Shown here piece after piece: positions 23,598-46,809 of a DNA stretch of 64,000 nucleotides. Under the pieces are notes generated by a model. The model was not told the DNA's origin. It did no database searches and saw nothing but the letters and a program-made list of their open reading frames with translations. Origin of the DNA: Coriobacteriales bacterium (GTDB taxonomy: Bacteria > Actinomycetota > Coriobacteriia > Coriobacteriales > UBA8131); NCBI GenBank assembly GCA_031264075.1, contig JAISEO010000092.1, positions 15,083-79,082 of the forward strand, given 5' to 3'. Positions within the stretch are counted from its first letter, which is position 1. Each line of letters opens with the position of its first letter. A program made the translations under genes and the position numbers.

Positions 23598-23615
23598 CGT
23601 AGTACTTCCTCTCTC

Positions 23616-24134: not shown

Positions 24135-24248
24135 GGGTTTCCTTTCTCAAAAATCGAAATATGCGTGCAATCCGGTATTAGATTCATGACTACGTACAGT
24201 TAAATCAGCATTCATAACAGTTTTCCCTTATATGTTGGGCGGTCAGTC

Positions 24249-26865: not shown

Positions 26866-26866
26866 T

Positions 26867-27544: not shown

Positions 27545-27632
27545 GCAGATTTCTCCTTACTTGTTAATGGCTGTCCCTTTTCTCTGTAAAATTACAATCA
27601 GGGGTGTTTCAAGTTGTATAATGTGGCTTCAA

Positions 27633-28481: not shown

Positions 28482-28555
28482 CTTCTATCCCTCTCCTGCT
28501 GTGATTTCTTTGTGTTCACTCTCTGTGCTCCCATTATTCCTGCGCACATCATCCT

Positions 28556-29206: not shown

Positions 29207-29360
29207 GGTCGTACTCCCTCTGTGACGCTGAACCCATAGCGGCTACCCTTCTCATAGCAGACACCTTCCCTTCAAAAAGCAAAAAATACAATCCGTACGG
29301 AATCCGTGCGGGACTGGTTGCAACGAAAAAGCAGGTTTTGCCACCGTAGCCCCACCGTGT

Positions 29361-29394
29361 GCAGCTATCAAAAGGTAAACCTTTTGATAGCTGC
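29361..29394. promoter_or_regulatory. hix-like recombination site 1 (34-bp perfect palindrome, central AA)
   Basis: gcagctatcaaaaggt AA accttttgatagctgc. The arms are exact reverse complements of each other. Confidence 0.6.
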
Positions 29395-29472
29395 GACTAA
29401 CGACAGTCATCCAGTGCCGGGTCGTCTCCCCTTTGCCCATTTTGCGAAAAACAGGTGGCTTTATGCCCGAAT

Positions 29473-30169
<697 letters not shown>

Positions 30170-32828: not shown

Positions 32829-32898
32829 GGTAGCACTTACTTTGCCTTTGCGTTGAGTAGCAGCACCTGCCCAGTTCTCAGGCAAAGTAAGTGCTACC
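32829..32898. repeat. inverted repeat GGTAGCACTTACTTTGCC / GGCAAAGTAAGTGCTACC (18-bp arms, 34-nt loop)
   Basis: Read directly from the sequence. A second copy of the same family lies at 63892-63960. Confidence 0.85.
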
Positions 32899-33171: not shown

Positions 33172-36100
33172 ATGCTTGAACTGAAGAACCTGGTAAAGTC
33201 CTACACCACGGCGGGCTTTACACAAAAGGCACTCGACGGTGTCTCGGTAACGCTGCGCGACAACGAGTTCGTCGCCGTGCTCGGCCCCAGCGGCTCGGGC
33301 AAGACGACCCTGCTCAACATCGTCGGCGGCCTGGATCACTACGACTCCGGTGACCTCATCATTGACGGCATCTCCACGAGGGAATACAAGGACAGAGACT
33401 GGGATACCTACCGCAACAACCGCATCGGCTTTGTCTTTCAGAGTTACAACCTCATCCCGCACCAGAGCGTGCTGGCCAATGTGGAGTTGGCGCTGACGCT
33501 TTCGGGTGTGCCCAAGGCCGAACGGCGCAAGCGGGCCCGCATGGCGCTCGCCCAGGTGGGCCTGCAAGACCATATCTCCAAGAAGCCGAGCCAGCTCTCC
33601 GGCGGTCAGATGCAGCGCGTGGCCATAGCCCGTGCCCTCATCAACGACCCGGAGATACTCCTCGCCGACGAGCCCACCGGAGCACTCGACTCCAAGACCA
33701 GTGTGCAGATAATGGACCTCCTCAAGGAGATAGCCGCAGATCGCCTCGTGGTCATGGTCACCCACAACCCCGACCTGGCAGACACCTACGCCAACCGCAC
33801 CATCCGCCTCTCGGACGGCAGAGTCGTAGGAGACTCCAATCCCGTCGCCGCCACCGAGGTGGGACACGAGGCCCGCCCCCCGCGCAGGGCGAAGATGAGC
33901 TTCTTTACCGCCGTTGCGCTCTCCTTCAGCAACCTCATGACCAAGAAGGGGCGCACGCTGATGATGGCCTTTGCCGGCTCCATCGGCATCATCGGCATCG
34001 CCGGCATCCTCGCGCTCTCCAACGGCGTCAACAACTATATCAAGACGGTGGAGGAGGACACGCTCAGCGTGTATCCGCTCTCCATTACCTCCACGGGCTT
34101 TGACATGACCTCGCTGTTGGTGGGGAGCACCGCCACCTCGGACGACTCTGAGGAGGGCGAGGCCGAAGAGTCTGAAGCCTCCGCAGGCTTCTCGCTGTTT
34201 GGTGGCATCAATACCGAGGAAGAGGAGCTTGCCGAGGAAGAACAGCTCATCCAGGAGTTCCCCATCATGTCCTCGATGTTCGACACGGTTCAGTCCAACG
34301 ACCTGGCCGCGCTCAAGACCTATCTGGAGAGCTCGGAGAGCGGCATTGACGAGTACGTCAACACCATTCAGTATGAGTATGATGTGACGCCGCAGATCTA
34401 CCTCCCTGTGACCGACCCGGAGACCCATAAGGTCAACCCCGATACGAGCTTTGCGGCGCTGGGCATGGGTTCGGGGGTCAGCAGCAGTTCGCTCTTAAGC
34501 ATGGGCATGAGCACCGATGTCTTTGCCGAGCTGTTGAATGATTACGATATCTACAGCGAGCAGTATGAGGTGCTCGCCGGCGACTGGCCCCACCAGGCCG
34601 ATGAGATCGTGCTGGTAGTGACCGCAGCCCATCGCGTGAGCGACTACCTGCTGTATCCCATGGGCCTGCGTGACTACCACGAACTCAACGCCATGGTCGA
34701 GGCCTTCGTCAACGAGGAAGAGGTGGTCACCTCAGACGACCGGCTCGACTTCAGCTATGAGGACATCATGGAAGTGAGCTTTACCCTGGTCTACAACTCC
34801 GACTACTACACCCATGATGACACCTACGATGTCTGGGTCGATCGCAGCGATGATGCCGAGTTTGTCAAGGGACTCGTGAGGGATGGCAAGGAGCTGCGCA
34901 TCAGCGGCATCGTGGCGGCACGCGAGTCCTCGCAGACCATGATGCTCACGCCGGGTCTCTATTACACCTCCGAACTCGTAGAGGACATCGTGGCCCACTC
35001 CGAGGCGAGTGACATAACCAAATATCAGCTGGAGAATCCCACGCTCAACATATTTACCAACAAGACCTTTATCGAGGAGGCGGATGAGAACGCCGCGAGC
35101 GACTTTGACATGGGGAGTCTCTTCTCCATTGATGAGGAGGCCATGGGCAACGCCTTTTCCATGGACGATTCGGCCATGAGCGGCCTGGACTTTTCGGGCA
35201 TCCTCGACCCCAACGCGGTCATGGCTGCCATGCCGCCGATGGATATGAGCGGTGCGCTCGCAGGCATCGGCAACGACGGCGCGACGCCCGATATGCAGAG
35301 TGCGCTGCAAGGCGCCCTGTCCACGGCCATTGGAGGGCTCATGCAGGGGTATATGATCTGGTATCCAACGAGCGGTTTTCCGCTGACGGATCTGGCTGCT
35401 CACTTCGGCGACTTCATGCAGACGCCCGAGGCACAGGCCATCCTCGTTGAGGCCATCGCCAACGATCCGGCCATGGCAGCGTATCAGATCCAGATGGCCG
35501 AGTACCAGGCCCAGATGCAGGCTGCCATCACCGGGTATATGCAGCAGTACATGCAGCAGATGCTCACCATCATGGCCGAGCAGATAGCCGTCAACATGCA
35601 GGCTACCATGGCAAACCTTACCGCCAACATGGCCAACGCCATGCACATAGACGAGGAGGCCTTTGCAGAGGCCTTCCAGTTCAACCTCGACGAGGCGGAA
35701 CTCACGGCGCTCATGCTCTCGATGATGGGCGGCCAGCAGAGTTCCCTCAACGGCAACCTCACCAAGCTCGGCTATGCCGACTACGCGAGCCCCTACCAGA
35801 TATCGCTCTACCCCTTTGACTTTGAAGGCAAGCAGGAAATCCTCAACATCCTCGATGCCTACAACAAGCGCATGGAGGACGCGGGCGAGGAGGAGAAGGT
35901 CATCACCTACACCGACATCGTGGGTACGCTCATGAGTTCCGTCACCACGATAATCGACATGATCTCCATGGTGCTGGTGGCCTTTGTGGCCATCTCGCTG
36001 GTGGTCTCCTCCATCATGATAGGCGTCATCACCTATATCTCGGTGCTCGAGCGCAAGAAGGAGATAGGCATCCTGCGCTCCATTGGCGCGAGCAAGGGCG

Positions 36101-36363
36101 ACATCGGCAACGTCTTCAACGCCGAGACCCTCATCGTGGGCTTTGTGGCGGGAGCCATGGGCATTGCCATCGTGCTCGTGCTGTCTGTTCCCATCAACCT
36201 CATCGTGTTGCAGGGCTTTGACATACCCAACATCGTGCTGTTGCCGCCCCTGCCCGCGATAATCCTCATTGCCGTGAGCTGTCTGCTCACCTTTGTGGCC
36301 GGGCTTCTGCCCTCCAGCGCAGCAAGCCGCAAGGATCCGGTGGAGGCACTGAGGTCGGAGTAA
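33172..36363 (+). CDS. fused ABC transporter ATP-binding protein and FtsX/MacB-type permease
   Basis: N-terminal Walker A (GPSGSGKTT), signature LSGGQMQR and Walker B (LLADEPT). The C-terminus has a large extracytoplasmic region and FtsX-type helices. Confidence 0.85.
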   Translation: MLELKNLVKSYTTAGFTQKALDGVSVTLRDNEFVAVLGPSGSGKTTLLNIVGGLDHYDSGDLIIDGISTREYKDRDWDTYRNNRIGFVFQSYNLIPHQSVLANVELALTLSGVPKAERRKRARMALAQVGLQDHISKKPSQLSGGQMQRVAIARALINDPEILLADEPTGALDSKTSVQIMDLLKEIAADRLVVMVTHNPDLADTYANRTIRLSDGRVVGDSNPVAATEVGHEARPPRRAKMSFFTAVALSFSNLMTKKGRTLMMAFAGSIGIIGIAGILALSNGVNNYIKTVEEDTLSVYPLSITSTGFDMTSLLVGSTATSDDSEEGEAEESEASAGFSLFGGINTEEEELAEEEQLIQEFPIMSSMFDTVQSNDLAALKTYLESSESGIDEYVNTIQYEYDVTPQIYLPVTDPETHKVNPDTSFAALGMGSGVSSSSLLSMGMSTDVFAELLNDYDIYSEQYEVLAGDWPHQADEIVLVVTAAHRVSDYLLYPMGLRDYHELNAMVEAFVNEEEVVTSDDRLDFSYEDIMEVSFTLVYNSDYYTHDDTYDVWVDRSDDAEFVKGLVRDGKELRISGIVAARESSQTMMLTPGLYYTSELVEDIVAHSEASDITKYQLENPTLNIFTNKTFIEEADENAASDFDMGSLFSIDEEAMGNAFSMDDSAMSGLDFSGILDPNAVMAAMPPMDMSGALAGIGNDGATPDMQSALQGALSTAIGGLMQGYMIWYPTSGFPLTDLAAHFGDFMQTPEAQAILVEAIANDPAMAAYQIQMAEYQAQMQAAITGYMQQYMQQMLTIMAEQIAVNMQATMANLTANMANAMHIDEEAFAEAFQFNLDEAELTALMLSMMGGQQSSLNGNLTKLGYADYASPYQISLYPFDFEGKQEILNILDAYNKRMEDAGEEEKVITYTDIVGTLMSSVTTIIDMISMVLVAFVAISLVVSSIMIGVITYISVLERKKEIGILRSIGASKGDIGNVFNAETLIVGFVAGAMGIAIVLVLSVPINLIVLQGFDIPNIVLLPPLPAIILIAVSCLLTFVAGLLPSSAASRKDPVEALRSE

Positions 36364-36373
36364 CTGACAACAG

Positions 36374-36428
36374 GGGGGACGGGGCAACTGTGCCCCAAGC
36401 ACTCGGTGGGTTCGTTGCCCCGTCCCCC
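36374..36428. repeat. GC-rich palindromic element (GGGGGACGGGGCAAC, 25 nt, GTTGCCCCGTCCCCC)
   Basis: Perfect 15-bp arms. Sits 10 nt after the ABC gene stop. Confidence 0.85.
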
Positions 36429-36512
36429 TACAGTGCGAACACCAGTGGATCCGGTACACCGCTTCACCCCTCGAATGATTCTGAGATTTATCTATGGATA
36501 AATCACATAATC

Positions 36513-36541
36513 TTGACTTTTCCCCAGATAAAAATTATAAT
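36513..36541 (+). promoter_or_regulatory. near-consensus sigma-70-type promoter for the AAA ATPase gene
   Basis: TTGACT, 17-bp spacer, TATAAT. An AT-rich palindrome, gatttatctatggataaatc, lies upstream at 36485-36504. Confidence 0.5.
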
Positions 36542-36584
36542 CTGTAGTTCCATCAAACCTGCTGCCAGAAAGGAGCGCTCTGCC

Positions 36585-37889
36585 ATGACCACCCCTATGA
36601 AGCGCCGAGCCTCTAACCTTCTGCTGGACTGGAAGAATTCACAACGGTCACGCAAGCCCCTGCTTCTCAACGGTGCTCGCCAAGTGGGAAAGACCTGGCT
36701 GCTTCAGCATTTCGCCCAGCAGAATTACGAGAACCATATTCATATCAGCCTCGACTCTAACACCAGGATTGCGTCATACTTTGACGACGACATCACACCC
36801 GCACGCATCATCACGCTTCTGGAGGCCGAGTTTCGTCAGAACATCACTCCAGGAAAAACCCTTGTTATCTTCGACGAGATACAGTCCTGTGAACGTGCGC
36901 TGACCTCTCTGAAGTACTTTGCGGAAGATGCGCCCGAATATCACATCACCGCCGCTGGTAGCCTGTTGGGCGTAGCCATCAACAGAGAACGTTACTCCTT
37001 TCCCGTTGGTCAGGTTCAAATGCTCAATCTGCATCCCATGGACTTTGAGGAATACCTCACAGCAAGAGACGAAACGCTCCTGCTTGAGGCCATCCAAGAG
37101 GGCTTTCAGCACAAGAAGCCATTGCTCCCCGGCCTGCATCAAAAGGCGATAGAGCGTTACCGCGAATATCTTGTCACCGGCGGTATGCCAGCCGTAGTAG
37201 CCGCCTTCAGGGAGGGAACGCCCTTCTTTGATCTGCCCCTGTTGCAAGAACAGATACTCGGCAACTATAGCGCCGACATGGCAAAGTACGCCAGCCCTTC
37301 CGAGACAGTAAAGATTCGGGCCTGCTTTAACTCACTGCCCGCACAGCTGGGCAAGGACAACCACAAGTTTCAGTACCGTGTCGTGCGCAAAGGCGGCAGT
37401 GCGGCCATCTACGCCGAGGCAATCGAGTGGCTGGTGCTCGCGGGCGTGGTAAACCGTTGTCAGAAGACCGAGCAGGGCTTGCAGCCTGTCACTACGCACG
37501 TTGACCCCGGCTCATTCAAGCTCTATCATCTGGATACCGGCCTGCTCAGTGCGCAGACAGGCGTCAGGCAAAGTGACATCCTCACCGGAACCCCCCAACA
37601 TTTTCAGGGAGCGCTTGCGGAGAATTATGTAGCCCAGCAGCTCGTCGCTCGCTCAAATCAACTCTATTACTGGACCAGCAATAACACCGCTGAGGTGGAT
37701 TTTGTCCTTCAGTCTCAAGCAGGCGTAACGGCCATTGAGGTAAAGAGTGGCGGCAACACCCATTCCAAAAGCCTCCGGCAATTCATCAACCGCTACTCTC
37801 CCGAGCGCGCGATACGGCTCTCACTCAAGCCCTTCGGCTCCGGCGGCGACCTGCAAGCGGTTCCGCTTTACGCAGCGTTTTGCCTGTAG
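36585..37889 (+). CDS. AAA ATPase with DUF4143-type C-terminal domain
   Basis: Walker A ..LLLNGARQVGKTWLL... The C-terminus ..EVDFVLQ..AIEVKSGGN.. is restriction-endonuclease-like. Confidence 0.8.
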   Translation: MTTPMKRRASNLLLDWKNSQRSRKPLLLNGARQVGKTWLLQHFAQQNYENHIHISLDSNTRIASYFDDDITPARIITLLEAEFRQNITPGKTLVIFDEIQSCERALTSLKYFAEDAPEYHITAAGSLLGVAINRERYSFPVGQVQMLNLHPMDFEEYLTARDETLLLEAIQEGFQHKKPLLPGLHQKAIERYREYLVTGGMPAVVAAFREGTPFFDLPLLQEQILGNYSADMAKYASPSETVKIRACFNSLPAQLGKDNHKFQYRVVRKGGSAAIYAEAIEWLVLAGVVNRCQKTEQGLQPVTTHVDPGSFKLYHLDTGLLSAQTGVRQSDILTGTPQHFQGALAENYVAQQLVARSNQLYYWTSNNTAEVDFVLQSQAGVTAIEVKSGGNTHSKSLRQFINRYSPERAIRLSLKPFGSGGDLQAVPLYAAFCL

Positions 37890-37942
37890 GGGGATGGGGC
37901 AACAGGCCCGCTGCGGTTCGTGGATCCGTTGCCTCGTCCTCC
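37889..37942. repeat. GC-rich palindromic element, diverged copy
   Basis: gggggaTggggcaac ..24 nt.. gttgccTcgtccTcc. It starts at the ATPase stop codon. Confidence 0.75.
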
Positions 37943-37992
37943 TGCCCGGAAGGTTCAGCCCCGTCCCAGAATGTTGAAAGAGGAGGAAAAGT

Positions 37993-38772
37993 ATGATGAA
38001 CCTGGAAGAACGAATAGCTCTGTTGCACAGCGCGGTGCTGGCCGGTAGCCGTGTGGTATTCTTTGGCGGTGCCGGTGTCTCCACGCAGAGTGGCATCCCG
38101 GACTTTCGCAGCAGGGACGGCCTGTACAACCAGCACTACGCCTATCCGCCTGAGGACATGCTGAGCCGTACCTTCTTTTATCAGCATACCGAGGAGTTTT
38201 TCGAGTTTTACCGGGAGAAGGTCGTGCTGCCGGCGCTGGCTGCCAAGCCTAATGCCGCTCATCAGGCGCTCGTGCGGTTGGAGGACGAGGGGCATCTCCG
38301 AGCCGTTATCACTCAGAACATCGACGGCCTGCACCAGGCGGCAGGCTCCCGCAAGGTTCTTGAGTTGCACGGCAGCATCCAGCGCAATTACTGTGAGCAG
38401 TGTGGTGCCTTCTACGATGCTGAGCAGGTACTCGCCTTACTCGCCGTCAATCCTTCCGTTGCTACCGGCGGAGGCGGCGTGCCGCGCTGTTCACGTCTTG
38501 GCTGCACAGGGCTCGTAAAACCCGATGTGGTGCTCTACGAGGAGCCGCTCAACAGCGAGGTGCTTGATGAGGCCGTCCGTGAGATTTCCGAGGCCGAGGT
38601 GCTTATCGTCGGAGGTACGTCGCTCGTAGTCAACCCGGCTGCCAGCCTCGTGGGCCTGTTCCGCGGCAACACGCTCGTCGTCATCAACAAGTCCGATACC
38701 TGGAGCGATGCCAGCGCCGATATACTCTTCCACGAGGACATAGCCACGGTGCTGGGCGGGTTTCTGGGGTAA
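37993..38772 (+). CDS. cobB: NAD-dependent protein deacylase (sirtuin, Sir2/CobB family)
   Basis: ..FFGGAGVSTQSGIPDFRS.. ..TQNIDGLH.. ..ELHGS.. plus the Zn-binding Cys pairs CEQCG and CSRLGC. Confidence 0.9.
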   Translation: MMNLEERIALLHSAVLAGSRVVFFGGAGVSTQSGIPDFRSRDGLYNQHYAYPPEDMLSRTFFYQHTEEFFEFYREKVVLPALAAKPNAAHQALVRLEDEGHLRAVITQNIDGLHQAAGSRKVLELHGSIQRNYCEQCGAFYDAEQVLALLAVNPSVATGGGGVPRCSRLGCTGLVKPDVVLYEEPLNSEVLDEAVREISEAEVLIVGGTSLVVNPAASLVGLFRGNTLVVINKSDTWSDASADILFHEDIATVLGGFLG

Positions 38773-39000
38773 AGGGAGAAGAGGCAATTGTCCCACTGAG
38801 GTTCTTGACGCAGATGTCCGTCCCTTCTGTTTGATGTGTGGGATAACAGCCCCTTCCCAATCGTTTCTTGCAAGCACGCATGGGCAGGGAGGACATCACG
38901 CAACTGCGACAACCTGCAAGGCAGCCGATTATCGTGTATACTGACATTGGTTGGTGTTGTCTAGCGGTACGAGGGCAACGCCAGGAAAGCGAGGTGTCTC

Positions 39001-39189
39001 ATGAGGACTTTGGAAAGAGAGATAACCAGGGAACAGGCTCAACTGCTCTTTAACATCGATAGCACCATGACCGCCCCCAGGTACCGATTGATACTGAAAC
39101 CAGAGATCATCGCCGAGCCTTTCAAAAGCGAGCAGGAGGCCATGGATTGGATTGAGACAGCAACCGCTGAATTGTGGAAAGAGCTATGA
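39001..39189 (+). CDS. putative antitoxin of the MazF-like toxin
   Basis: 62-aa ORF. Its stop overlaps the toxin start (ATGA). No recognisable motif, so the call rests on position only. Confidence 0.4.
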   Translation: MRTLEREITREQAQLLFNIDSTMTAPRYRLILKPEIIAEPFKSEQEAMDWIETATAELWKEL

Positions 39190-39506
39190 GAAGGTTCGAC
39201 ATCGTTATCGTCTCCGGCGGCATCTATGCCGATAAGCACAGACCGGGTATCTTCGTTCAGGTTGTTGACGATATGGACGAAGACAGCCTGACCGTTGTTC
39301 CGTTGACCTCTGAAGCCAGGGACTCTAAGTGGTGGATACAGGTTGATCCCGATGAACAGAACGGCCTTGTGACAACCTCGTATATGATGGTCAACAAGAT
39401 AACCACCGTGCGAAAGAAGAATGCCCGTGATGTTGTTGGTCATTTGGCTGACGTGCACTGTGTTCTTCTGGAGCAAAGACTCCAGGAGTTCTTGGGGTTT
39501 GAGTAA
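39186..39506 (+). CDS. MazF/PemK-like toxin
   Basis: MRRFDIVIVS..DKHRPGIFVQVV..LTVVPLTSE.. fits the SH3-like PemK pattern (weak to moderate). Confidence 0.55.
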   Translation: MRRFDIVIVSGGIYADKHRPGIFVQVVDDMDEDSLTVVPLTSEARDSKWWIQVDPDEQNGLVTTSYMMVNKITTVRKKNARDVVGHLADVHCVLLEQRLQEFLGFE

Positions 39507-39743
39507 TTCACTAAGGGGACAGGGCAACTGTGTCACAGGTACTCTCGGCTCAGGCGAAAATCCTGCTCGCCATTCATCAGTTACCTGCTTGCGGCAAGAC
39601 GCTGGAGCTCGGCTATATCTTCATCCGAGGGCTTCTCAAACACCTCGTTCTTGAATCTCTTAGACGTTTTTTCTGAAATCTTCATATTGACAATCTCGCG
39701 CTTGACCTCATAGTCGATACCGTCTTGCAGGGAGTGGGTCGCA

Positions 39744-39772
39744 TTGCAATTCGCAGACACCTTGTGTATACT
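39744..39772 (+). promoter_or_regulatory. candidate promoter of the AbrB-PIN pair
   Basis: TTGCAA, 17-bp spacer, TATACT. An RBS (aggagg) lies before the ATG at 39826. Confidence 0.4.
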
Positions 39773-39825
39773 CTGAGTAGGGTAAGTAGGGAATTATCCC
39801 TTGCGCCTTACAGGAGGTAAGCAGT

Positions 39826-40101
39826 ATGGAAAGTATATTGGTTGATAACGCAAAGGTCATGTCCAAAGGCCAGATAACCCTGCCTAAAAGCATCCGCTCT
39901 GCCCTCGGTCTGACAACGGGAGACAGAGTGACATTGATAAAGCAGAATGACCAGGTCATCATGATGAATTCCGCAGTCTACGCGATGAAGATGCTCCAGA
40001 CCGCTATGGCAGGCGAGGCGGAGAAAGCGGGACTGCGAAGTGATGACGACGTTGCCACAATGATTATGGAAATGCGGGCCGAAGAGAGAGGAAGTGTCTG
40101 A
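39826..40101 (+). CDS. AbrB/MazE/SpoVT-family antitoxin
   Basis: ..KVMSKGQITLPKSIRSALGLTTGDRVTLI.. is the SpoVT-AbrB swapped-hairpin motif. Confidence 0.8.
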   Translation: MESILVDNAKVMSKGQITLPKSIRSALGLTTGDRVTLIKQNDQVIMMNSAVYAMKMLQTAMAGEAEKAGLRSDDDVATMIMEMRAEERGSV

Positions 40102-40496
40102 TCGACACCAACATCCTCGTGTCAGCCGCGTTGTGGCCGCAGAGTGTTCCCGCACAGGCATTCATGAAAGCCGTAGCCACACCCGGCGATGCTGTTGTTT
40201 GCGACTATTCAATGGACGAGATGCGCAGGGTATTCAATGAGAAGTTCCCACATCGTATAGCAGAGTATGAGGGCTTCGTGTCGCGCATGGCCCTGTCCGT
40301 CGAGATTGTTTTCACACCGCCAGACAACGAGTCGCATGAGTGCGAAGACAGGGTTCGCGACGTAAAGGATCGCCCGATTCTTCGCGCGGCTTTGGCAGCA
40401 CAGGTGGACACGATAATCACGGGAGATAAGGACTTCCTGGAAGCGGACTTGGAAAGGCCAGAGACACTGACGGCGGCACAGTTCCTTGCATGCTGA
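40098..40496 (+). CDS. PIN-domain toxin
   Basis: ..LIDTNILVSAAL.. at the N-terminus and ..DRPILRAALAAQVDTIITGDKDF.. later. No ATG, GTG or TTG lies upstream of the conserved LIDTN, so the start is probably the CTG at 40098, which overlaps the antitoxin stop. The GTG at 40119 is the alternative. Confidence 0.7.
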   Translation: MIDTNILVSAALWPQSVPAQAFMKAVATPGDAVVCDYSMDEMRRVFNEKFPHRIAEYEGFVSRMALSVEIVFTPPDNESHECEDRVRDVKDRPILRAALAAQVDTIITGDKDFLEADLERPETLTAAQFLAC

Positions 40497-40640
40497 AAAG
40501 GGACGGGGGTTGGGGCAGATTTCCCTGTTTCCGCCAGCGCATTTCGAGGCATTGCCCGATATCTGGCCTTCCTCATGTTATGAACTCGCGCAATCGTGTT
40601 ATCATGGGCATACCCGATTACCGAGTGAGAGGAATGAATC

Positions 40641-41057: not shown

Positions 41058-41312
41058 ATGTGTACCCATGGCGTTAACGCAAATCAGCTCAAGGGCACCA
41101 TCGAGCAGATAGATGAGGCGGTGGCACTCTGTCGCCGTTGGACGCACCGAGCCTATCACAGCGCCGACGACGGCCAGCTTGCCCGGACTGCCGCCTCGCT
41201 TATGAAGACCCAGGGCCTCCTGGACGAGGTGCGCGCCCTGCTTGACGAAGCCGGCGAGTTGGTCGAGAAAGACGCGGCCCTGGCTCCCGATGTTTCCGTT
41301 AAGGCTCTGTAG
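41058..41312 (+). CDS. hypothetical small helical protein
   Basis: 84-aa ORF. Its stop overlaps the nikR start. No recognisable motif. Confidence 0.3.
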   Translation: MCTHGVNANQLKGTIEQIDEAVALCRRWTHRAYHSADDGQLARTAASLMKTQGLLDEVRALLDEAGELVEKDAALAPDVSVKAL

Positions 41313-41731
41313 TGGGAGAGCTCGTACGCTTCTCGGTGGCCATGCCTGAAGAACTGCTGATGCAGTTCGATAATCTCGTGGCGCGCCGTGGCCTTGCCAA
41401 GAACCGCTCGGAGGTTATCCGCGACCTGGTACGGACAAGCCTTGTGGACGAGGAGTGGGACGACCCCGATGCCGAAATAGTCGGCACGCTGAGCATCGTC
41501 TTCAACCACCACGCCCCCGACCTGCAGGGCAAGCTCGACCTCATCCAGCACGCCCACTATGACAAGATCGTCTCCACCATGCATGTGCATCTGGACGCCC
41601 ACAATTGCCTGGAGGTTATCGTGTTGCGCGGCCAGAGCAAGCAGATTCGCGCCATTGCCGAGTCCATTCTCGGTGTCAAGGGGGTCAAGCACGGGCGCCT
41701 CACGGCTACCACCACCGGCAAATATATCTGA
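41312..41731 (+). CDS. nikR: nickel-responsive regulator NikR
   Basis: Ribbon-helix-helix N-terminus (VRFSVAMPEELLMQFD..). The C-terminal ACT-like domain has HH/H/C nickel ligands (..FNHH.. ..HVHLDAHNCLEV..). Confidence 0.85.
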   Translation: MGELVRFSVAMPEELLMQFDNLVARRGLAKNRSEVIRDLVRTSLVDEEWDDPDAEIVGTLSIVFNHHAPDLQGKLDLIQHAHYDKIVSTMHVHLDAHNCLEVIVLRGQSKQIRAIAESILGVKGVKHGRLTATTTGKYI

Positions 41732-44364
41732 TGGCAGTAGAGTCCTGGCGCATCCATGTCGAGGGCATCGTGCAGGGCGTCGGGTTCCGACCCTTTGTGT
41801 TTCGCCTGGCCCAGGAGCTCGGCCTGCATGGCTGGGTTAACAATGCCGCTGACGGCGTGCATATCCTTGCGCGGGGTACGGACGCACAGCTTGAGGAGTT
41901 TTTGCGTGAGCTGAGAGGGCGAAGACCCGCGGCGGCCGCGATCACGGATATCAGCTGGCAAGAGACCGACGAGCCCTGCGAGAACGGCTTTTTCATAGCT
42001 GCGTCCCAAGTCCAGCCCGGCAGGCGCACGCTTGTCTCACCGGATCTGGCCACCTGTCCCGAGTGCCTCGCCGAACTGCTGGACGCCACCGACCGACGCT
42101 TCCACTACCCCTTCATCAACTGCACCAACTGTGGGCCGCGCTTTACCATCATCAGGAACCTGCCCTACGACCGTGCTCGCACCACCATGGCGGCCTTTGC
42201 AATGTGCGAGCCCTGCGAGCACGAATACCATGACCCGGCAAACCGACGCTTTCACGCGCAGCCTGATGCCTGCTTTGCCTGCGGGCCCCACCTGGAACTG
42301 CGTATCCCTGAGACGGCGGAGCAGCTGAGCGGCACCACGCAGGCGGAAAGCGATGCCGTGCTCCGGCGCAGTGTCGAGTTGCTCGGGCAGGGCAGTATCC
42401 TCGCCATCAAGGGGCTCGGCGGCTATCACCTGGCCTGCGATGCCACGAATGAGGAGGCGGTAGCAAGGCTGAGGGAACGCAAGCGCAGGCCGCGTAAGCC
42501 ACTGGCCGTGATGTATGCGAGCCTTGAGGCCGTGCGCGCGCGCTTTGCGGTCAACAGCGGTGAGGCTGCCCTGCTGACGAGTCCGGCCGCCCCCATCGTG
42601 CTCCTTCGTGGCAGCACTTCGGCCGGCCGGCCAGCGCCGTGCGGGCACCGAAGGCCGCTTGCGTATGCGGTGTGCTGCGGTCTTGCCGAGACGGGGGTCA
42701 TGCTGCCTGCCACGCCCCTGCACCACCTCCTGCTCAAAGCGATGGACACGCCCCTGGTCATGACCTCGGGCAATGTCAGCGAAGAGCCCATCATCGGTGA
42801 CGACGCGCTGGCCCAGGAGCTGCTCGGAGGGATAGCCGATGCCTTTCTGCTGCACGATCGCCCGATAGTGTCACGCTACGACGACAGTGTCGTCAGGGTT
42901 CTGGCAAGCCCGTGTCTTGACAGGGCCGGGACAGTTGCCCCGTCCCCCAGTCCCTCGGCGCGCACCTCGGTGCGACCCTCGTGCCATCCCCTGACTCTCA
43001 CGACCCAGTTCGTCCGTCGCGCCCGTGGTTATGCGCCCGCCCCTCTCGCAGTGCCGGTCGCGACCGCCCCCGGTGAGGTGCTGCTGGCCACAGGGCCCGA
43101 GCAGAAGAGCAGCTTCTGTCTCGCGAGCGGCACCGACGCCTTCGTCTCGCAGCATCTGGGCAACCTGGACAATGCAGACTCCTTTGCCACCTACCTGGAC
43201 ACCATCCAGCTCTACGAAGAACTTTTCGCGCTTCAACCCACCGCCCTGGTCGCGGATCTGCATCCCGAGTATCTCAGCACCAGGTGGGCACAGGAACAGA
43301 GCGCGGAGCGCGGTATACCCCTGCTGCAGGTGCAGCACCATCATGCCCATATCGCGGCGGTCATCGCAGAGAACATGAGGGAGGCGGGGACAGGGGGGAC
43401 GAAAGGGGGACGGGGCAACGGGCCCACGAACTCCAGTGGGTCCGTTGCCCCGTCCCCCTGTCCCAGCAGCCTTGCCCCTCCCTTCCCTGTCCTGTCATCA
43501 GAGCAGGAGGTCATCGGCATCGCCCTTGACGGCACGGGTTACGGCACAGATGGCACCATCTGGGGTGGCGAGCTACTGGTGGCCTCACTGCAGGATGCCT
43601 CACGGTTCGCTCATCTGGAGTGCTTCCCGCTCCCCGGCGGCTCCCAGGCTATCAGGCATCCGCTGCGCGCCGCCTGTGCCCTGCTGCTCTACCAGGGGCT
43701 GGCCGAGCATCCGGCGGCCCGTGGCGTCAGGGAACGCTTGGGAGAGGCCAGCTTCGGACTCATCAAGCAGATGCTGGAGAAAGGTGTCAACGCGCCTTTG
43801 ACCTCCTCGGCGGGTAGGCTTTTTGATGTGGTGAGTGCGCTGCTCGGCATCTGTGATGAGGCAAGCTACGAGGGCGAGCCAGCCATTTTGCTGGAAGCGG
43901 CGATGAGCGGCGGGGGAGGAGCCTCCCTTGCTGCTTCCTGCGCCCCCTCTTCCGATACTTTCTTCGGTGCCTCGCCTGCTCCCCCCCTCGCCACCCCCTA
44001 TATCATGAGTACACGCAGCATCATCCGTGACATCCTCGACGGGATAGAGGCTGGTGTTTCGGTGGCGGCGCTCTCCCGGCAGTTTCACGAGGCCTTCATG
44101 GGCATCTGCGTGGATGCGGCCGTGCTTGCCCGCGAGAAAACGGGCCTGGAGCTGGTAGCCCTCTCCGGCGGGGTCTTCAACAACCGCTTCCTCGCTACCC
44201 ATATGCCCGTGCTGCTGCAACAGGCGGGCTTTGTTGTACTCACCCACCTGCAGCTGCCACCAAACGACGGCTGCATCTCCTATGGCCAGGCTGCGGTGGC
44301 CTGCGCACGGCTCTCCCAGAACTTTCCCAGGCCCAAAGCTGGTACACTTACCGTATGTGTTTAG
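41731..44364 (+). CDS. hypF: [NiFe]-hydrogenase maturation carbamoyltransferase HypF
   Basis: Acylphosphatase start (..VEGIVQGVGFRPFV..), two Zn fingers (CPECLAEL..CTNCGPRF; CEPCEHEY..CFACGP), a YrdC-like region and a Kae1-like region (..VQHHHAHIAA.. ..GIALDGTGYG..). It is about 100 aa longer than I would expect. Confidence 0.9.
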   Translation: MAVESWRIHVEGIVQGVGFRPFVFRLAQELGLHGWVNNAADGVHILARGTDAQLEEFLRELRGRRPAAAAITDISWQETDEPCENGFFIAASQVQPGRRTLVSPDLATCPECLAELLDATDRRFHYPFINCTNCGPRFTIIRNLPYDRARTTMAAFAMCEPCEHEYHDPANRRFHAQPDACFACGPHLELRIPETAEQLSGTTQAESDAVLRRSVELLGQGSILAIKGLGGYHLACDATNEEAVARLRERKRRPRKPLAVMYASLEAVRARFAVNSGEAALLTSPAAPIVLLRGSTSAGRPAPCGHRRPLAYAVCCGLAETGVMLPATPLHHLLLKAMDTPLVMTSGNVSEEPIIGDDALAQELLGGIADAFLLHDRPIVSRYDDSVVRVLASPCLDRAGTVAPSPSPSARTSVRPSCHPLTLTTQFVRRARGYAPAPLAVPVATAPGEVLLATGPEQKSSFCLASGTDAFVSQHLGNLDNADSFATYLDTIQLYEELFALQPTALVADLHPEYLSTRWAQEQSAERGIPLLQVQHHHAHIAAVIAENMREAGTGGTKGGRGNGPTNSSGSVAPSPCPSSLAPPFPVLSSEQEVIGIALDGTGYGTDGTIWGGELLVASLQDASRFAHLECFPLPGGSQAIRHPLRAACALLLYQGLAEHPAARGVRERLGEASFGLIKQMLEKGVNAPLTSSAGRLFDVVSALLGICDEASYEGEPAILLEAAMSGGGGASLAASCAPSSDTFFGASPAPPLATPYIMSTRSIIRDILDGIEAGVSVAALSRQFHEAFMGICVDAAVLAREKTGLELVALSGGVFNNRFLATHMPVLLQQAGFVVLTHLQLPPNDGCISYGQAAVACARLSQNFPRPKAGTLTVCV
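42934..42948. repeat. right-arm copy of the GC-rich palindromic element inside hypF
   Basis: gttgccccgtccccc, identical to the arms at 36414 and 43444. Translated in frame as VAPSP. Confidence 0.7.
43405..43458. repeat. complete GC-rich palindromic element inside hypF
   Basis: gggggacggggcaac, 24 nt, gttgccccgtccccc. Perfect arms, and the loop is related to that of the 36374 copy. Translated in frame. Confidence 0.85.
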
Positions 44365-44591
44365 CCATTCCCGCACAGATCCTGTCCATTGATGAGGGCA
44401 GAGTTGCCTCCGTGAGTATACTCGGGGTGTCCCGCGCGGCTGCCCTGGATCTGGTGCCCCAGGCTGAGCTCGGCGACTATGTGCTGGTACACGCCGGTTA
44501 TGCCATAGAGATAATCGATGAGCGCATGGCGCGTGAGACGCTGGATCTTATTGCCGAGTTTCCTGAGTTGGCCGACCAGGGAGGGTTCTAG
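44355..44591 (+). CDS. hypC: hydrogenase maturation chaperone HypC
   Basis: MCLAIPAQI.. N-terminal Cys2. 78 aa. Confidence 0.9.
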   Translation: MCLAIPAQILSIDEGRVASVSILGVSRAAALDLVPQAELGDYVLVHAGYAIEIIDERMARETLDLIAEFPELADQGGF

Positions 44592-44600: not shown

Positions 44601-45725
44601 ATGGACAGGGCACTTCTCGACAGATTCAAGGATCCCGAGCTCAGTCGTGGCCTGGTTGCCCGCATCTTCAAGCTCTCAGAAGAACTGGACGGCACACGGG
44701 GCCGCACCCCCCTCAACATCATGGAGGTCTGTGGCACGCATACCGTAGCCATCGCGCGGAGCGGGCTTGCCGGCCTGCTGCCCGAGAGCATCCGGCTCAT
44801 CAGTGGTCCGGGCTGTCCGGTCTGCGTGACGGCAAACAGCAGCATCGACCACGTTATCGCGGCCTCGCGCCTGCCGGATGTGGTTCTGACAACCTTTGGC
44901 GACATGATGCGGGTGCCCGGCTCAAGCACCAGCCTGCAGGAGCGCAGGGCAGAGGGAGCCAGGGTCGAGGTGGTGTACTCGCCGCTCGATGCCCTGGAAC
45001 TGGCCGCCCGGAGTCCCGAGCAGCAGTACATCTTTGTGGCGGTGGGTTTTGAGACCACCACACCGCTGGTTGCCGCTACGATCAAGCGCGCCGCCAGCGC
45101 CGGCGTAGACAACTTCTCCGTTCTCAGCTCCCAGAAGCGCGTGGCGCCCGCCCTCGATGCCCTGGCGCACGACCCTGACGTGGCGCTCGATGCCCTGATA
45201 CTGCCGGGCCACGTGAGCACCATCCTCGGCGTAGCGCCCTACCGGTTTCTGGCTGAGCAGTACGGCATTCCAGGTGTGATTGCCGGGTTTGAGCCCGTAG
45301 ACCTCCTGCTGGCCCTGGCGGAGCTTTTGGAACAGCTGGTGCAGCAGCGCCCCCGTATAGAGATAGCCTACGGGCGAGCGGTACACGAGCACGGCAACGA
45401 ACAGGCGCGCGCGGTCATTGACGAGGTGTTTGAGGTAGCGGACGCCACCTGGCGTGGCCTCGGCCCCATTCCCCGTTCCGGCCATGTGTTGCGCAGGGAG
45501 TATGCCCGCTTTGATGCCCTGCAACGTTTTGACATCGCGTCGCGTACCGAGCCCACCGTCGAGCCCCGGGGTTGCCGCTGTGGGGATGTGTTGCGCGGCG
45601 TCATAACTCCCGGCGAGTGCTCCCTCTTCGGCACGGCCTGCACGCCGGTCAACCCCGTGGGGCCCTGTATGGTATCGGGCGAGGGCAGCTGCGCGGCCTG
45701 GTACAGATATAAGTTGGGCGCGTGA
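44601..45725 (+). CDS. hypD: hydrogenase maturation protein HypD
   Basis: ..MEVCGTHT.. ..GPGCPVCV.. ..GFETT.. motifs. Confidence 0.9.
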   Translation: MDRALLDRFKDPELSRGLVARIFKLSEELDGTRGRTPLNIMEVCGTHTVAIARSGLAGLLPESIRLISGPGCPVCVTANSSIDHVIAASRLPDVVLTTFGDMMRVPGSSTSLQERRAEGARVEVVYSPLDALELAARSPEQQYIFVAVGFETTTPLVAATIKRAASAGVDNFSVLSSQKRVAPALDALAHDPDVALDALILPGHVSTILGVAPYRFLAEQYGIPGVIAGFEPVDLLLALAELLEQLVQQRPRIEIAYGRAVHEHGNEQARAVIDEVFEVADATWRGLGPIPRSGHVLRREYARFDALQRFDIASRTEPTVEPRGCRCGDVLRGVITPGECSLFGTACTPVNPVGPCMVSGEGSCAAWYRYKLGA

Positions 45726-45726
45726 G

Positions 45727-46809
45727 ATGGAAAGGCTCGTCACGATGGCGCACGGCAGCGGCGGCACGCAGATGAGCAGTCTCATCCGGGACGTCTTTAC
45801 GAGCGCCTATGGCAATGAACTGCTGCTCACCGGCGATGATGCCGCGGTTTTGGAGATAACAGCACTGCAGGAGCCGGGCGCCCGCCTGGCCTTCTCTACC
45901 GACAGCTACGTGGTAACGCCCCATTTCTTTGCCGGTGGTGACATCGGACGCCTTGCCGTGTGTGGCACGGTCAACGACCTGGCTACCAGCGGTGCCCAGC
46001 CACTCTACCTCTCCCTCGGATTCATACTGGAAGAGGGATTTGAGCTCGACAGTCTCAGGCGCATCACCGCGAGCATTGCCGCTGCAGCCCAGGAGGCGGG
46101 CGTGCGCATCGTCACCGGCGACACCAAGGTCGTCGAGCGCGGCAAGGGCGACGGCATCTATATCAACAGCAGTGGGGTAGGGCTTATCGCGCCGGGTGTT
46201 GCGCTCAGTGGGCGGAGCTGCCTGCCGGGTGACACCATCCTGCTCTCCGGCACCCTCGGCGACCACGGCATCACCATTGTGTCGGCGCGGGAGGGCCTGC
46301 GCTTCGAGGCACCGGTGGAAAGTGACGCCGCTCCCCTGGGTGAGCTGGTGCAGGCGGTGCTTGCCGCGGCACCCAGAACCCGTTGCTTCCGTGACCCCAC
46401 GCGCGGCGGCCTGGCCTCTACGCTCAATGAGTTGGCCCAGCAGAGTCACACCTGTATGCTCGTAGACGAAGACGCCGTGCCGGTACAGGATGCCGTACGC
46501 GGCGCGTGCGATCTGCTCGGTTACGACCTCTATCACCTGGCAAACGAGGGTAAGATGGTGGCCATCGTGCCGCCCGAGCAGGCCGAGGATGCGCTCGCTG
46601 CCCTGCGCCACAACCGCTACGGGGAGGAGGCGGCCATCATTGGTACCGTCACAGCGGCCGATGAGCAGGGGCTTTTGCACTCCCCGGAGCTTCCGAGAAC
46701 ACAGGAACTCCCGCGTACCGCCGTGGCACGAGCCCTTGTACGCACGGCGCTCGGCACGCTGAGGATAATGGACGTCCTCACCGGTGAGCAGCTCCCGAGG
46801 ATCTGCTGA
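45727..46809 (+). CDS. hypE: hydrogenase maturation protein HypE
   Basis: ..MAHGSGG.. at the N-terminus, a PurM-like fold, and the C-terminal ..PRIC. Confidence 0.9.
   Translation: MERLVTMAHGSGGTQMSSLIRDVFTSAYGNELLLTGDDAAVLEITALQEPGARLAFSTDSYVVTPHFFAGGDIGRLAVCGTVNDLATSGAQPLYLSLGFILEEGFELDSLRRITASIAAAAQEAGVRIVTGDTKVVERGKGDGIYINSSGVGLIAPGVALSGRSCLPGDTILLSGTLGDHGITIVSAREGLRFEAPVESDAAPLGELVQAVLAAAPRTRCFRDPTRGGLASTLNELAQQSHTCMLVDEDAVPVQDAVRGACDLLGYDLYHLANEGKMVAIVPPEQAEDALAALRHNRYGEEAAIIGTVTAADEQGLLHSPELPRTQELPRTAVARALVRTALGTLRIMDVLTGEQLPRIC

What the first reader, a model, noticed from the sequence alone, without database searches (positions are those of the whole stretch)
42915..43464. GC-rich palindromic repeat inserted twice, in frame, inside hypF
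The element GGGGGACGGGGCAAC-(24-25 nt)-GTTGCCCCGTCCCCC occurs intergenically at 36374-36428 and, in diverged form, at 37889-37942. A complete copy with perfect arms lies inside the hypF ORF at 43405-43458, and a right-arm copy lies at 42934-42948. Both are translated without breaking the frame. The peptides are ..GRGNGPTNSSGSVAPSPCPSS.. and ..DRAGTVAPSPSPSA... They fall between conserved HypF blocks, specifically DDSVVRV | RRARGYAP and QHHHAHIAA | GIALDGTGYG. This explains why this HypF is about 100 aa longer than I expect. It looks like a REP- or MITE-like element colonising a housekeeping maturation gene while the ORF is preserved.
Basis: partly seen in the sequence, partly recalled or inferred. 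Interest (0 to 1): 0.6.

Follow-up and report, generated by a model that had tools for sequence, protein, structure and literature searches.

The report
Hairpin repeat translated inside hypF
A small GC-rich hairpin-forming repeat that normally sits just after genes in a few uncultured Coriobacteriales genomes has landed twice inside the hydrogenase-maturation gene hypF, where it is read through as floppy surface-loop peptide; this is a new example of a known phenomenon (like the Rickettsia palindromic elements), not a new kind of system.

Summary
The 15-nt arm GTTGCCCCGTCCCCC occurs 8 times in the window (0.29 expected), forming full hairpins at 36374-36428, 37889-37942 and 43405-43458, plus a right-half copy at 42928-42954. 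I found further degenerate copies at 38768-38862, 39514-39560 and 40500-40525. hypF (41731-44364, 877 aa) is intact. None of 119 homologues carries the two peptides. Both sites are indel hot spots in HypF and are modelled as low-confidence coil. The rest of the model superposes on solved HypF (TM 0.94).

The same hairpin lies in intergenic DNA of two other Coriobacteriales MAGs and two metagenome contigs, mostly just after ordinary genes. It matches no Rfam family. The best reading is a REP-like or terminator-like dispersed palindrome family, with one young full copy and one half copy tolerated in frame in hypF loops.

- The element accounts for most of the +40 aa at site 2, but only 9 of the +30 aa at site 1.
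- All seven copies lie within 7.2 kb.
- Five of them follow consecutive genes around a 4.2-kb defence/toxin-antitoxin island that a syntenic relative lacks.
- No transposase, target-site duplication or empty site was found, so mobility is inferred.

Novelty: new member of a known kind. Interest is moderate.

The parts
41731..44364 (+). hypF coding sequence (877 aa), intact. The gene order is nikR (41312-41731), hypF, hypC (44355-44591), hypD (44601-45725), hypE (45727-46809).
   Evidence: 100% identity to the deposited HypF, all five HypF Pfam domains; same order in relatives; AF2 pLDDT 86.9; TM 0.94 to 3vth_A
43384..43492 (-). hypF site 2. The full hairpin copy has its core at 43401-43462, with perfect 15-nt arms at 43405-43419 and 43444-43458. 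The outer GGGACAG/CTGTCCC extension reaches 43384-43467. Extra partial arms lie at 43387-43401 and 43472-43492. The loop GAACTCCA is the reverse complement of the family loop TGGGGTTC, so this copy is in reverse orientation. It is translated as ..AGTGGTKGGRGNGPTNSSGSVAPSPCPSSLAPPF..
   Evidence: (CM 78.5 bits)
43375..43506 (+). Expanded loop 2 of HypF (aa 549-592), between helix 536-554 (the HHHAH motif) and strand 594-598. It is +40 aa over the median and is modelled as disordered coil (pLDDT 32-57). It corresponds to residues 495-498 of 3vth.
42928..42954 (.). hypF site 1. This is a right-half copy, GGGACAGTTGCCCCGTCCCCCAGTCCC (inner-stem half, right arm and outer extension). It is of the 'GTGGGACA' subtype, different from site 2. 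No significant left half is present. It is translated as ..GTVAPSPSPS..
   Evidence: no significant fold; score 50 against a null 99th percentile of 22
42901..43005 (+). Expanded loop 1 of HypF (aa 391-425), the turn of a beta-hairpin (strands 387-393 and 422-429). It is +30 aa over the median, with pLDDT 52-61. It corresponds to residues 372-379 of 3vth. Only 9 of these residues come from the repeat.
36370..36432 (+). Intergenic full copy with perfect arms. It lies 10 nt after the TAA stop of the ABC/FtsX gene (33172-36363), at the left edge of the island.
   Evidence: 62.5 bits; the sequence was confirmed by an independent Logan assembly
37885..37946 (+). Intergenic full copy, diverged. Its first arm base is the G of the TAG stop of the DUF4143 ATPase gene (36585-37889). 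Its three arm substitutions are all G.U-compatible on the + strand (-40 kcal/mol against -26 on the other strand).
   Evidence: (63 bits)
38768..38862 (+). Degenerate copy with an enlarged loop, overlapping the TAA stop of the Sir2 gene (37993-38772).
   Evidence: 21 bits, E 0.04; left half scores 34, right half 22
39514..39560 (+). Truncated copy with the left arm and a loop homologous to that of copy 36374, but no right arm. It lies 7 nt after the TAA stop of the MazF/PemK gene (39174-39506).
40500..40525 (.). Remnant of a left half (GGGACGGGGGTTGGGGCAGATTTCCC), 3 nt after the TGA stop of the PIN gene (40119-40496), at the right edge of the island.
   Evidence: score 28 against a null 99th percentile of 22
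36364..40540 (+). A 4.2-kb island that is absent from a syntenic relative. It holds the DUF4143 ATPase (PADLOC candidate PDC-S01), Sir2, a 62-aa ORF with MazF, and MazE/AbrB with PIN. All genes are on the + strand, and each unit is followed by a copy of the hairpin.

Best explanation
The window comes from an uncultured Coriobacteriales genome. It carries a lineage-restricted family of GC-rich palindromic repeats. The core is about 62 nt: GGGGACGGGGCAAC-NGNCCCAC-8 nt loop-GTGGGNCN-GTTGCCCCGTCCCC, sometimes extended by GGGACAG/CTGTCCC. Their usual place is intergenic, within 0-40 nt of a stop codon. There they behave like REP-type or terminator-type hairpins, acting as 3'-end structures of transcripts.

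Two copies of different subtypes ended up inside hypF. One is a young, complete, perfectly paired copy in the loop after the HHHAH helix. The other is an old or partial right-half copy in a beta-hairpin turn at the start of the Kae1-like domain. The GC-rich element has no stop codon in the frame used, and the added lengths are multiples of three. The ribosome therefore reads through it, giving Gly/Pro/Ser-rich disordered peptide. Those two loops tolerate insertions of many kinds in this clade, so HypF stays functional and the insertions persisted.

Shown: the repeat family; its intergenic habit; its presence in other genomes; the absence of the peptides from orthologues; and the intact ORF, motifs and predicted fold. 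Inferred: that the copies arrived by insertion (transposition in trans, or hairpin-mediated recombination or gene conversion from the copies 3-7 kb upstream); that the intergenic copies act on RNA; and that the protein is active.
For: - Repeat is beyond chance: 8 arm matches against 0.29 expected.
- Structured family: the covariance model finds only these sites in the window; 94% of cells are paired, with 3 compensatory pairs.
- The same element, with arms identical, is found in intergenic DNA of MAGs Gx481_bin10 (4 loci) and Nm470_bin52 (1 locus) and of 2 metagenome contigs. In the five MAG loci it lies next to ordinary genes: DinB, a CoA-enzyme activase, an ACT-domain protein, desulfoferrodoxin, and fumarase/GalU-like genes. 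In one metagenome contig it sits upstream of a sigma-70 factor gene. The other metagenome contig was not annotated.
- The site-2 copy differs from the Gx481_bin10 copy L004 by 2 loop bases.
- The inserted peptides are absent from 119 homologues.
- Relatives' inserts at the same sites are unrelated and not hairpins.
- The two sites carry different subtypes of the element, so they are two separate events.
- The sites map to short turns in solved HypF and to low-pLDDT coil in the model.
- The rest of the fold is intact, with TM 0.94 to 3vth_A.
- More than 150 invariant HypF positions are retained.
- Strand-specific G.U compensation in copy 37889 hints at an RNA-level role.
- In-frame intragenic palindromic elements are documented elsewhere (PMC10969869).
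Against: - No empty site is available. The closest hypF is only 61% identical, so insertion is inferred from absence in distant orthologues.
- No target-site duplication, transposase or RAYT was seen in 64 kb.
- Only 1-4 perfect copies were found in each of the two available related genomes, and none in viral contigs. The family may therefore be low-copy and not actively mobile.
- All 7 window copies lie within 7.2 kb. Random genome-wide transposition does not predict this.
- Site 1 has only half an element.
- None of the copies has a U tract.
- The RNA-level evidence rests on one copy.
- The hypF part of the MAG contig has no independent assembly support.
Confidence: 0.7

Rival explanations
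1. The hairpins are recombination sites of a cassette-type gene-capture system, analogous to integron attC sites. Each island gene plus its downstream hairpin would be a captured cassette. The hypF copies, including the half copy, would be scars of recombination at secondary sites near the array.
For: - Five consecutive co-oriented units (ABC gene, DUF4143 ATPase, Sir2, antitoxin-MazF, MazE-PIN) each end 0-10 nt before a hairpin copy.
- The 4.2-kb block is absent from syntenic relative L011.
- The cargo is TA and defence genes.
- Where the loop can be read, all island copies share one orientation.
- Half copies of both polarities exist, at 39514 and 42928.
- AAC...GTT triplets are present in the stem.
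Against: - There is no tyrosine recombinase in the 64 kb; the only recombinase is a serine resolvase 6 kb away with its own palindromes.
- The AAC/GTT triplets lie mid-stem and do not fit RYYYAAC/GTTRRRY.
- There is no unpaired central spacer or extrahelical base, and the terminal loop is 8 nt against 20-100 nt for attC (PMC4889954).
- In other genomes the copies are single and follow housekeeping genes.
- The closest DUF4143 homologues elsewhere are not followed by the element.
- Complete integrons are not known in Actinobacteria (PMC9024848).
Confidence: 0.1
2. The hypF hairpin is kept because it works in the mRNA. It could be an internal attenuator, terminator or RNase-processing site, or a ribosome-pausing structure, that tunes expression of HypF's C-terminal part and of the downstream hypCDE. 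On this view it is not a merely tolerated passenger.
For: - It is the most stable local fold in the window (-67 kcal/mol), with perfectly maintained arms.
- Intergenic copies sit where transcript 3' ends are expected.
- One copy shows sense-strand G.U compensation.
Against: - No orthologue has any comparable structure at this site.
- There is no U tract.
- Perfect arms are equally explained by a young age.
- The site-1 copy has lost its structure.
- The copy lies in reverse orientation relative to the intergenic copies.
Confidence: 0.1
3. The resemblance is a by-product of composition or of local events only. Options are convergent Gly/Pro/Ser-coding low-complexity DNA, a local duplication within this 7-kb stretch with no wider family, or a metagenome-assembly chimera that joined reads at a shared repeat.
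For: - All copies in the window are clustered.
- The genome is a MAG.
- The hypF segment has no second assembly.
- The inserts are low-complexity peptide.
Against: - Five perfect 15-mers against 0.29 expected.
- A 52-nt core is identical, apart from 2 loop bases, to a copy in a different MAG.
- Both flanks of each hypF copy are collinear, in-frame hypF sequence.
- The neighbouring intergenic copies are reproduced exactly in an independent Logan assembly.
Confidence: 0.04

Closest known systems
Rickettsia palindromic elements (RPE)
   Same: Both are dispersed palindromic repeat families with copies lying in frame inside housekeeping genes. The copies are translated as extra peptide at positions compatible with the fold, and other copies are intergenic (PMC10969869).
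   Different: RPEs are about 100-150 bp and AT-rich, with dozens of intragenic copies in reduced alphaproteobacterial genomes. Here the core is 54-62 nt and 70% G+C with a near-perfect 27-bp stem. Only two intragenic copies are seen, both in one gene. The host is an actinobacterial gut MAG, and there is no sequence similarity.
REP/BIME elements and their RAYT transposases (Enterobacteria, Pseudomonas, Stenotrophomonas)
   Same: Both are short imperfect palindromes found just after stop codons. The stem is conserved while the loop varies. Roles as mRNA 3'-end stabiliser or terminator are plausible.
   Different: No conserved GTAG tetranucleotide is present; the one at 37886 is the upstream gene's own ..FCL-stop codons. 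No RAYT was seen. The stem is longer, and the apparent copy number is low, at 1-4 perfect copies per related genome. REPs are very rarely intragenic.
Terminator-like mobile repeats, such as SPRITE of Streptococcus pneumoniae and QMITE2 of Coxiella in 3' UTRs
   Same: Both are repeated hairpins concentrated at gene 3' ends (PMC10969869 lists both).
   Different: Those have a U tract or TIR/TSD architecture. Here there is no U tract and no TSD.
Integron attC sites / Vibrio cholerae repeats
   Same: Both are hairpin repeats that directly follow each of several co-oriented accessory (TA/defence) genes in an array, and both contain AAC...GTT triplets.
   Different: The box consensus, unpaired spacer, extrahelical bases and long variable loop are all missing. 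No integrase is nearby, and copies in other genomes are solitary after core genes (PMC4889954, PMC9024848).
Mitochondrial 'byps' of Magnusiomyces (GC-rich hairpin inserts in coding genes that ribosomes bypass; from my own knowledge, Lang et al. 2014)
   Same: Both are GC-rich hairpin-forming mobile inserts of 27-55 nt inside essential coding sequences.
   Different: Byps break the frame or carry stops and need translational bypassing. Here the frame is open and the length is a multiple of three, so plain read-through suffices.

Membership tests
HypF carbamoyltransferase (host gene) | Acylphosphatase, two zinc-finger, YrdC-like and Kae1-like domains, with the HHHxH and other invariant motifs and the overall fold | tested here: met
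   All five HypF Pfam families are precomputed on the identical protein. More than 150 invariant columns are retained. PDB hits are 3vth at E 1e-168 and TM 0.94.
In-frame intragenic palindromic element (RPE-like behaviour) | The same repeat family occurs both intergenically and inside an ORF without breaking the frame | tested here: met
In-frame intragenic palindromic element (RPE-like behaviour) | The inserted peptide is absent from orthologues and located in a surface loop | tested here: met
   Absent in 119 of 119 homologues. Maps to turns in 3vth and to low-pLDDT coil in the AF2 model. This rests on prediction, not a solved structure of this protein.
In-frame intragenic palindromic element (RPE-like behaviour) | Many genes of the genome are invaded | not testable with these tools
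   The rest of this genome is not in the searchable collections. Peptide searches were uninformative.
REP / RAYT system | Conserved 5' GTAG tetranucleotide next to the hairpin | tested here: not met
   Flanks differ among copies. The TGTAG at 37885 is the conserved C-terminal codons plus stop of the DUF4143 gene, present in homologues without the element.
REP / RAYT system | An IS200/IS605-like Y1 transposase (RAYT) gene flanked by REPs | tested here: inconclusive
   None among the ~57 ORFs of the window that were scanned with Pfam. The remainder of the genome is unavailable.
REP / RAYT system | Hundreds of dispersed intergenic copies | tested here: inconclusive
   Seven copies in 64 kb, but all within 7.2 kb. 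Only 4 and 1 perfect copies in the two related representative genomes. Diverged copies there could not be counted.
MITE | Terminal inverted repeats plus a target-site duplication | tested here: not met
   The arms act as inverted repeats, but no direct repeat flanks any full copy.
MITE | A parent IS with matching terminal repeats | not testable with these tools
   No IS is present in the window, and the genome is not available.
Integron attC site | R''/R' boxes (RYYYAAC / GTTRRRY) at the base of the stem, an unpaired central spacer, extrahelical bases and a 20-100-nt variable terminal structure | tested here: not met
   GGGCAAC/GTTGCCC match 5 of 7 positions and lie mid-stem. The stems are fully paired and the loop is 8 nt. 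Feature definitions are from PMC4889954.
Integron attC site | An adjacent IntI tyrosine recombinase | tested here: not met
   None in the window.
Integron attC site | An array of co-oriented gene-plus-site units | tested here: met
   Five consecutive units between 33172 and 40525.
Intrinsic (Rho-independent) terminator | A GC-rich stem followed by a U tract | tested here: not met
   The stem is present, but none of the copies is called by the terminator scan and none has a T run.
Any Rfam RNA family | A score at or above the family's gathering threshold | tested here: not met
   No hit at gathering thresholds. Only sub-threshold matches to generic miRNA-precursor hairpins were found.

The most novel reading that the evidence does not exclude
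The hairpins may be the recombination sites of an undescribed cassette-capture or hairpin-targeted integration system in Coriobacteriia, a phylum where complete integrons are unknown. On this reading the ATPase, Sir2, MazF and PIN units next to the hyp operon are captured cassettes. The full copy and the half copy inside hypF would be off-target recombination scars that happened to stay in frame.
Probability: 0.08. Interest if true: 0.8.

Novelty: new member of a known kind. Interest (0 to 1): 0.4.

Why it matters
It adds a clean, recent example from gut Actinomycetota of a selfish or structural DNA hairpin being absorbed into an essential-pathway enzyme as disordered loop sequence. This process is best known from Rickettsia. 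It shows that two specific HypF loops are general landing zones for extra sequence. It also defines a previously uncatalogued hairpin repeat family, with a covariance model, that annotators of Coriobacteriales MAGs could use to mark 3' ends. Such a model would also help avoid calling spurious ORFs through the repeat. The co-occurrence of the repeats with a small defence/TA island is worth a look once complete genomes exist. It does not open a long-standing question.

Tried and rejected
- Rfam at gathering and at permissive thresholds gave nothing but generic miRNA-hairpin noise.
- The REP 'GTAG' idea was rejected after homologues showed that TGTAG is the DUF4143 gene's own end.
- The idea that relatives' hypF inserts are also repeat-derived was rejected. 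Inserts in L008-L011 have ordinary fold energies and no CM hits.
- The idea that gene plus hairpin moves as a unit got no support. The closest DUF4143 homologues (65-67% identity) in three other contigs lack the element.
- Walking the 94-kb contig or finding a second assembly of hypF failed. HypF and HypD are not on record. Only 36018-39020 was recovered, and it was 100% identical.
- Searching for other proteins that contain the element-coded peptide failed. The word-index search found no candidates, not even the parent protein, so it is uninformative. The exhaustive search gave one spurious repetitive protein.
- The viral-contig scan found 0 matches.
- A third low-confidence HypF region (aa 729-752) and a hairpin inside the T2SSE gene (54707-54793) were checked as possible further insertions. 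Both were rejected: the first is a linker that varies in all homologues and is not longer here. The second is conserved native coding sequence.
- The canonical terminator scan called none of the copies.
Full report
**1. Observation**

The 15-mer GTTGCCCCGTCCCCC and its complement occur 8 times with at most 2 mismatches, against 0.29 expected from shuffles.
- They form perfect inverted repeats at 36374-36428 and 43405-43458.
- They form a diverged inverted repeat at 37889-37942.
- A lone right arm lies at 42934-42948 and a lone left arm at 39514-39528.
- Allowing 3 mismatches adds only one probably random site.

The copy in hypF is really a 27-nt-arm palindrome at 43401-43462 with an 8-nt loop. 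It folds at -67 kcal/mol (z -9.6). That is the most stable 74-nt fold anywhere in the 64 kb.

The ORF 41605-44364 is open. From the ATG at 41731 it encodes 877 aa. This is identical to a deposited 'carbamoyltransferase HypF' of a Coriobacteriales MAG on a 94-kb contig.

**2. The host gene and the two sites**

I aligned the 120 best homologues; the closest are 55-61% identical.
- The stretch DDSVVRV..RRARGYAP is 53 aa here, against a median of 23.
- The stretch QHHHAHIAA..GIALDGTGYG is 71 aa here, against a median of 31.
- No homologue contains VAPSP, GRGNG or related words.

Both positions are indel hot spots. The ten closest relatives carry unrelated inserts of 1-50 aa at site 1 and 0-46 aa at site 2. 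I fetched the DNA of four of these relatives. Their inserts have ordinary folding energies (-0.2 to -0.4 kcal/mol per nt, against -0.77 here) and no match to the repeat model.

Against solved HypF structures:
- Site 1 falls between residues 372 and 379 of 3vth.
- Site 2 falls between residues 495 and 498.

An AlphaFold2 model built on a 50-sequence alignment has pLDDT 86.9 and pTM 0.89.
- Residues 394-421 are low-confidence coil in the turn of a beta-hairpin.
- Residues 555-592 are low-confidence coil (pLDDT 32-57) between the HHHAH helix and the next strand.
- The model superposes on 3vth_A with target-normalised TM 0.94.
- More than 150 invariant alignment positions are retained.

hypF is followed by hypC, hypD and hypE and preceded by nikR, as in the relatives. 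The gene therefore looks functional, with two extra floppy loops.

**3. What the repeat is**

I scanned one genome per species (GTDB) for GGACGGGGCAAC-N15-40-GTTGCCCCGTCC.
- This found five loci: four in Coriobacteriales MAG Gx481_bin10 and one in Nm470_bin52.
- The metagenome collection added two contigs.
- Viral contigs gave none.
- The window's own genome is not in these collections.

Alignment of the copies gives a consensus: GGGGACGGGGCAAC, inner stem NGNCCCAC, an 8-nt loop (often TGGGGTTC), GTGGGNCN, then GTTGCCCCGTCCCC. Some copies add an outer pair GGGACAG/CTGTCCC. The inner stem has two subtypes (GGGCCCAC/GTGGGTCC and TGTCCCAC/GTGGGACA). One metagenome variant has a different but still paired inner stem. 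On nine full copies, 94% of cells pair and three pairs show compensatory change.

No Rfam family matches.

All external copies are intergenic.
- They mostly lie 13-40 nt after an ordinary gene: DinB, a CoA-enzyme activase, or an ACT-domain protein.
- One lies between convergent genes, one of which is desulfoferrodoxin.
- One lies between divergent fumarase-like and GalU-like genes.

The site-2 copy in hypF differs from the Gx481_bin10 copy L004 only at two loop bases across a 52-nt core.

**4. More copies in the window, and their arrangement**

A covariance model, run without filters, finds the three full copies and a weak one at 38770-38862. It finds nothing else in 64 kb.

Local alignment to the half-consensus (null 99th percentile 22) gives the following:
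- A left half at 38768-38796 (score 34) and a right half at 38838-38858 (score 22).
- A left-half remnant at 40500-40525 (score 28).
- The site-1 right half at 42928-42954 (score 50).
- Extra partial arms beside the site-2 copy at 43387-43401 and 43472-43492 (score 24 each).
- No significant left half at site 1.

This gives seven copies, all between 36.37 and 43.49 kb. The five intergenic ones follow five consecutive + strand units within 0-10 nt of their stop codons:
- ABC/FtsX (stop at 36363).
- DUF4143 ATPase (stop at 37889, overlapping the element by one base).
- Sir2 (stop at 38772).
- A 62-aa ORF plus MazF (stop at 39506).
- MazE/AbrB plus PIN (stop at 40496).

In relative L011 the ABC/FtsX gene is followed after 334 nt by the thioredoxin gene that sits at 40641 here. 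The 4.2 kb in between is therefore an island. The ATPase matches the PADLOC candidate defence family PDC-S01.

An independent Logan assembly reproduces 36018-39020 exactly.

**5. How it most likely works**

*Intergenic copies.* They sit where transcript 3' ends are expected.
- In copy 37889 all three arm substitutions are transitions that keep G.U pairs on the sense strand. It folds at -40 kcal/mol on that strand against -26 on the other.
- This hints at selection on RNA, but it is a single copy, and the other copies fold equally on both strands.
- No copy has a U tract. If they terminate transcription or stabilise mRNA, they do so as U-less hairpins. This is an inference.

*hypF copies.*
- The two copies are of different subtypes, so they came from two events rather than an internal duplication.
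- Site 2 is complete and perfectly paired, so it is probably young.
- Site 1 has lost, or never had, its left half, and the region no longer folds significantly.
- In the frame used there are no stop codons, and the added lengths keep the frame. Both copies are read as G-x-VAPSP-x-PS.

*How the copies got there is not shown.*
- I found no target-site duplication.
- There is no GTAG signature. The TGTAG before copy 37889 is the conserved ..FCL-stop of the ATPase gene, and it is present in homologues that lack the element.
- The Pfam-scanned ORFs of the window contain no transposase. The only recombinase is a serine resolvase at 29483-30145, with palindromes of its own.
- The tight clustering suggests either local spread (short-range transposition, or recombination or gene conversion from neighbouring copies) or a link with how the island was built.

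**6. Rivals**

*Cassette or attC-like reading.*
- For: it is attractive because of the array of gene-plus-hairpin units and the TA/defence cargo.
- Against: the hairpin lacks the attC box consensus, unpaired spacer, extrahelical bases and long variable loop (PMC4889954).
- Against: there is no integrase in the window.
- Against: copies in other genomes are solitary after core genes.
- Against: homologues of the ATPase elsewhere lack the hairpin.
- Against: complete integrons are unknown in Actinobacteria (PMC9024848).
- I give it about 0.1.

*Regulatory role for the hypF hairpin.* This is possible but unsupported by conservation. I give it about 0.1.

*Chance, purely local duplication or assembly chimera.* These are largely excluded.

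**7. Comparison with known systems and verdict**

The behaviour matches that of Rickettsia palindromic elements and of occasional intragenic ERIC, BOX and QMITE copies. These are repeats that are mostly intergenic but sometimes fuse in frame into genes (PMC10969869).
- The family itself matches no Rfam family, and my one targeted literature search for REP/RAYT in Actinobacteria returned no papers.
- It is short, GC-rich and actinobacterial.
- Membership of REP/RAYT, MITE, attC or intrinsic-terminator classes fails or cannot be tested feature by feature (see the membership table).

I classify it as a new member of a known kind, of moderate interest (0.4). The element explains most of the +40 aa at site 2 but only 9 of the +30 aa at site 1. 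Mobility remains an inference.

**8. What did not work**

- Look-ups of the exact HypF and HypD proteins found no record.
- The peptide searches were uninformative.

Noticed in passing
window 29361-29541 and 29483-30145: A serine recombinase gene (Pfam Resolvase) lies on the - strand. Two near-identical palindromes accompany it: GCAGCTATCAAAAGGT-AA-ACCTTTTGATAGCTGC (29361-29394) and AGGCGCTATCAAAAGGT-TT-ACCTTTTGATAGCGCCT (29506-29541, inside the last codons of the recombinase gene). The central dinucleotides AA and TT imply inverted crossover sites. They flank about 111 nt that contain a promoter-like TTGCTT...TGcTATGAT. This is a candidate invertible switch.
   Followed up: partly
window 32829-32898 and 63886-63966: A second, unrelated hairpin repeat family, GCAGCACTTACTTTGCC-(32-33 nt)-GGCAAAGTAAGTGCTGC, has two intergenic copies in the window. 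This genome therefore carries more than one palindromic repeat family.
   Followed up: partly
window ~9700-29400: A block with lower third-position GC (0.5-0.65, against 0.75-0.8 in flanking core genes). It holds a DUF4143 fragment, a PemK toxin, three kinase-like proteins, a PP2C phosphatase, zinc-ribbon proteins and a DUF6273 protein, and it ends at the resolvase. It is probably an acquired island and carries no copy of the hypF repeat.
   Followed up: partly
window 36585-37889: The DUF4143/AAA_14 ATPase in the small island matches the PADLOC candidate single-gene defence family PDC-S01 (E 2e-161). A near-consensus promoter, TTGACT-17-TATAAT, lies at 36513-36541 between the hairpin and the gene.
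   Followed up: partly
window 54707-54793: This is the second most stable local fold in the window (21-nt arms, -47.7 kcal/mol) and lies inside the T2SSE/CpaF ATPase gene. Alignment with orthologues shows it is native conserved coding sequence around the Walker A motif, not an insertion.
   Followed up: yes
L003 700-760; L001 2800-2890: In Gx481_bin10 some copies are more complex. L003 has a partial tandem duplication of the left arm (GTGGGACGGGGCTGGGCCAGTGGGGACGGGGCAAC). L001 has an outer palindrome extension (GGTGGGACAGC...GCTGTCCCACC) that repeats the inner-stem sequence, which allows alternative foldings.
   Followed up: no
L005 2916-3060; window 36390-36584: Long ORFs that start inside or upstream of intergenic copies read through the element, again as ..VAPSP... 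This produces plausible-looking but probably spurious N-terminal extensions of a D-Ala-D-Ala carboxypeptidase-like gene and of the DUF4143 ATPase. It is a gene-calling trap.
   Followed up: partly
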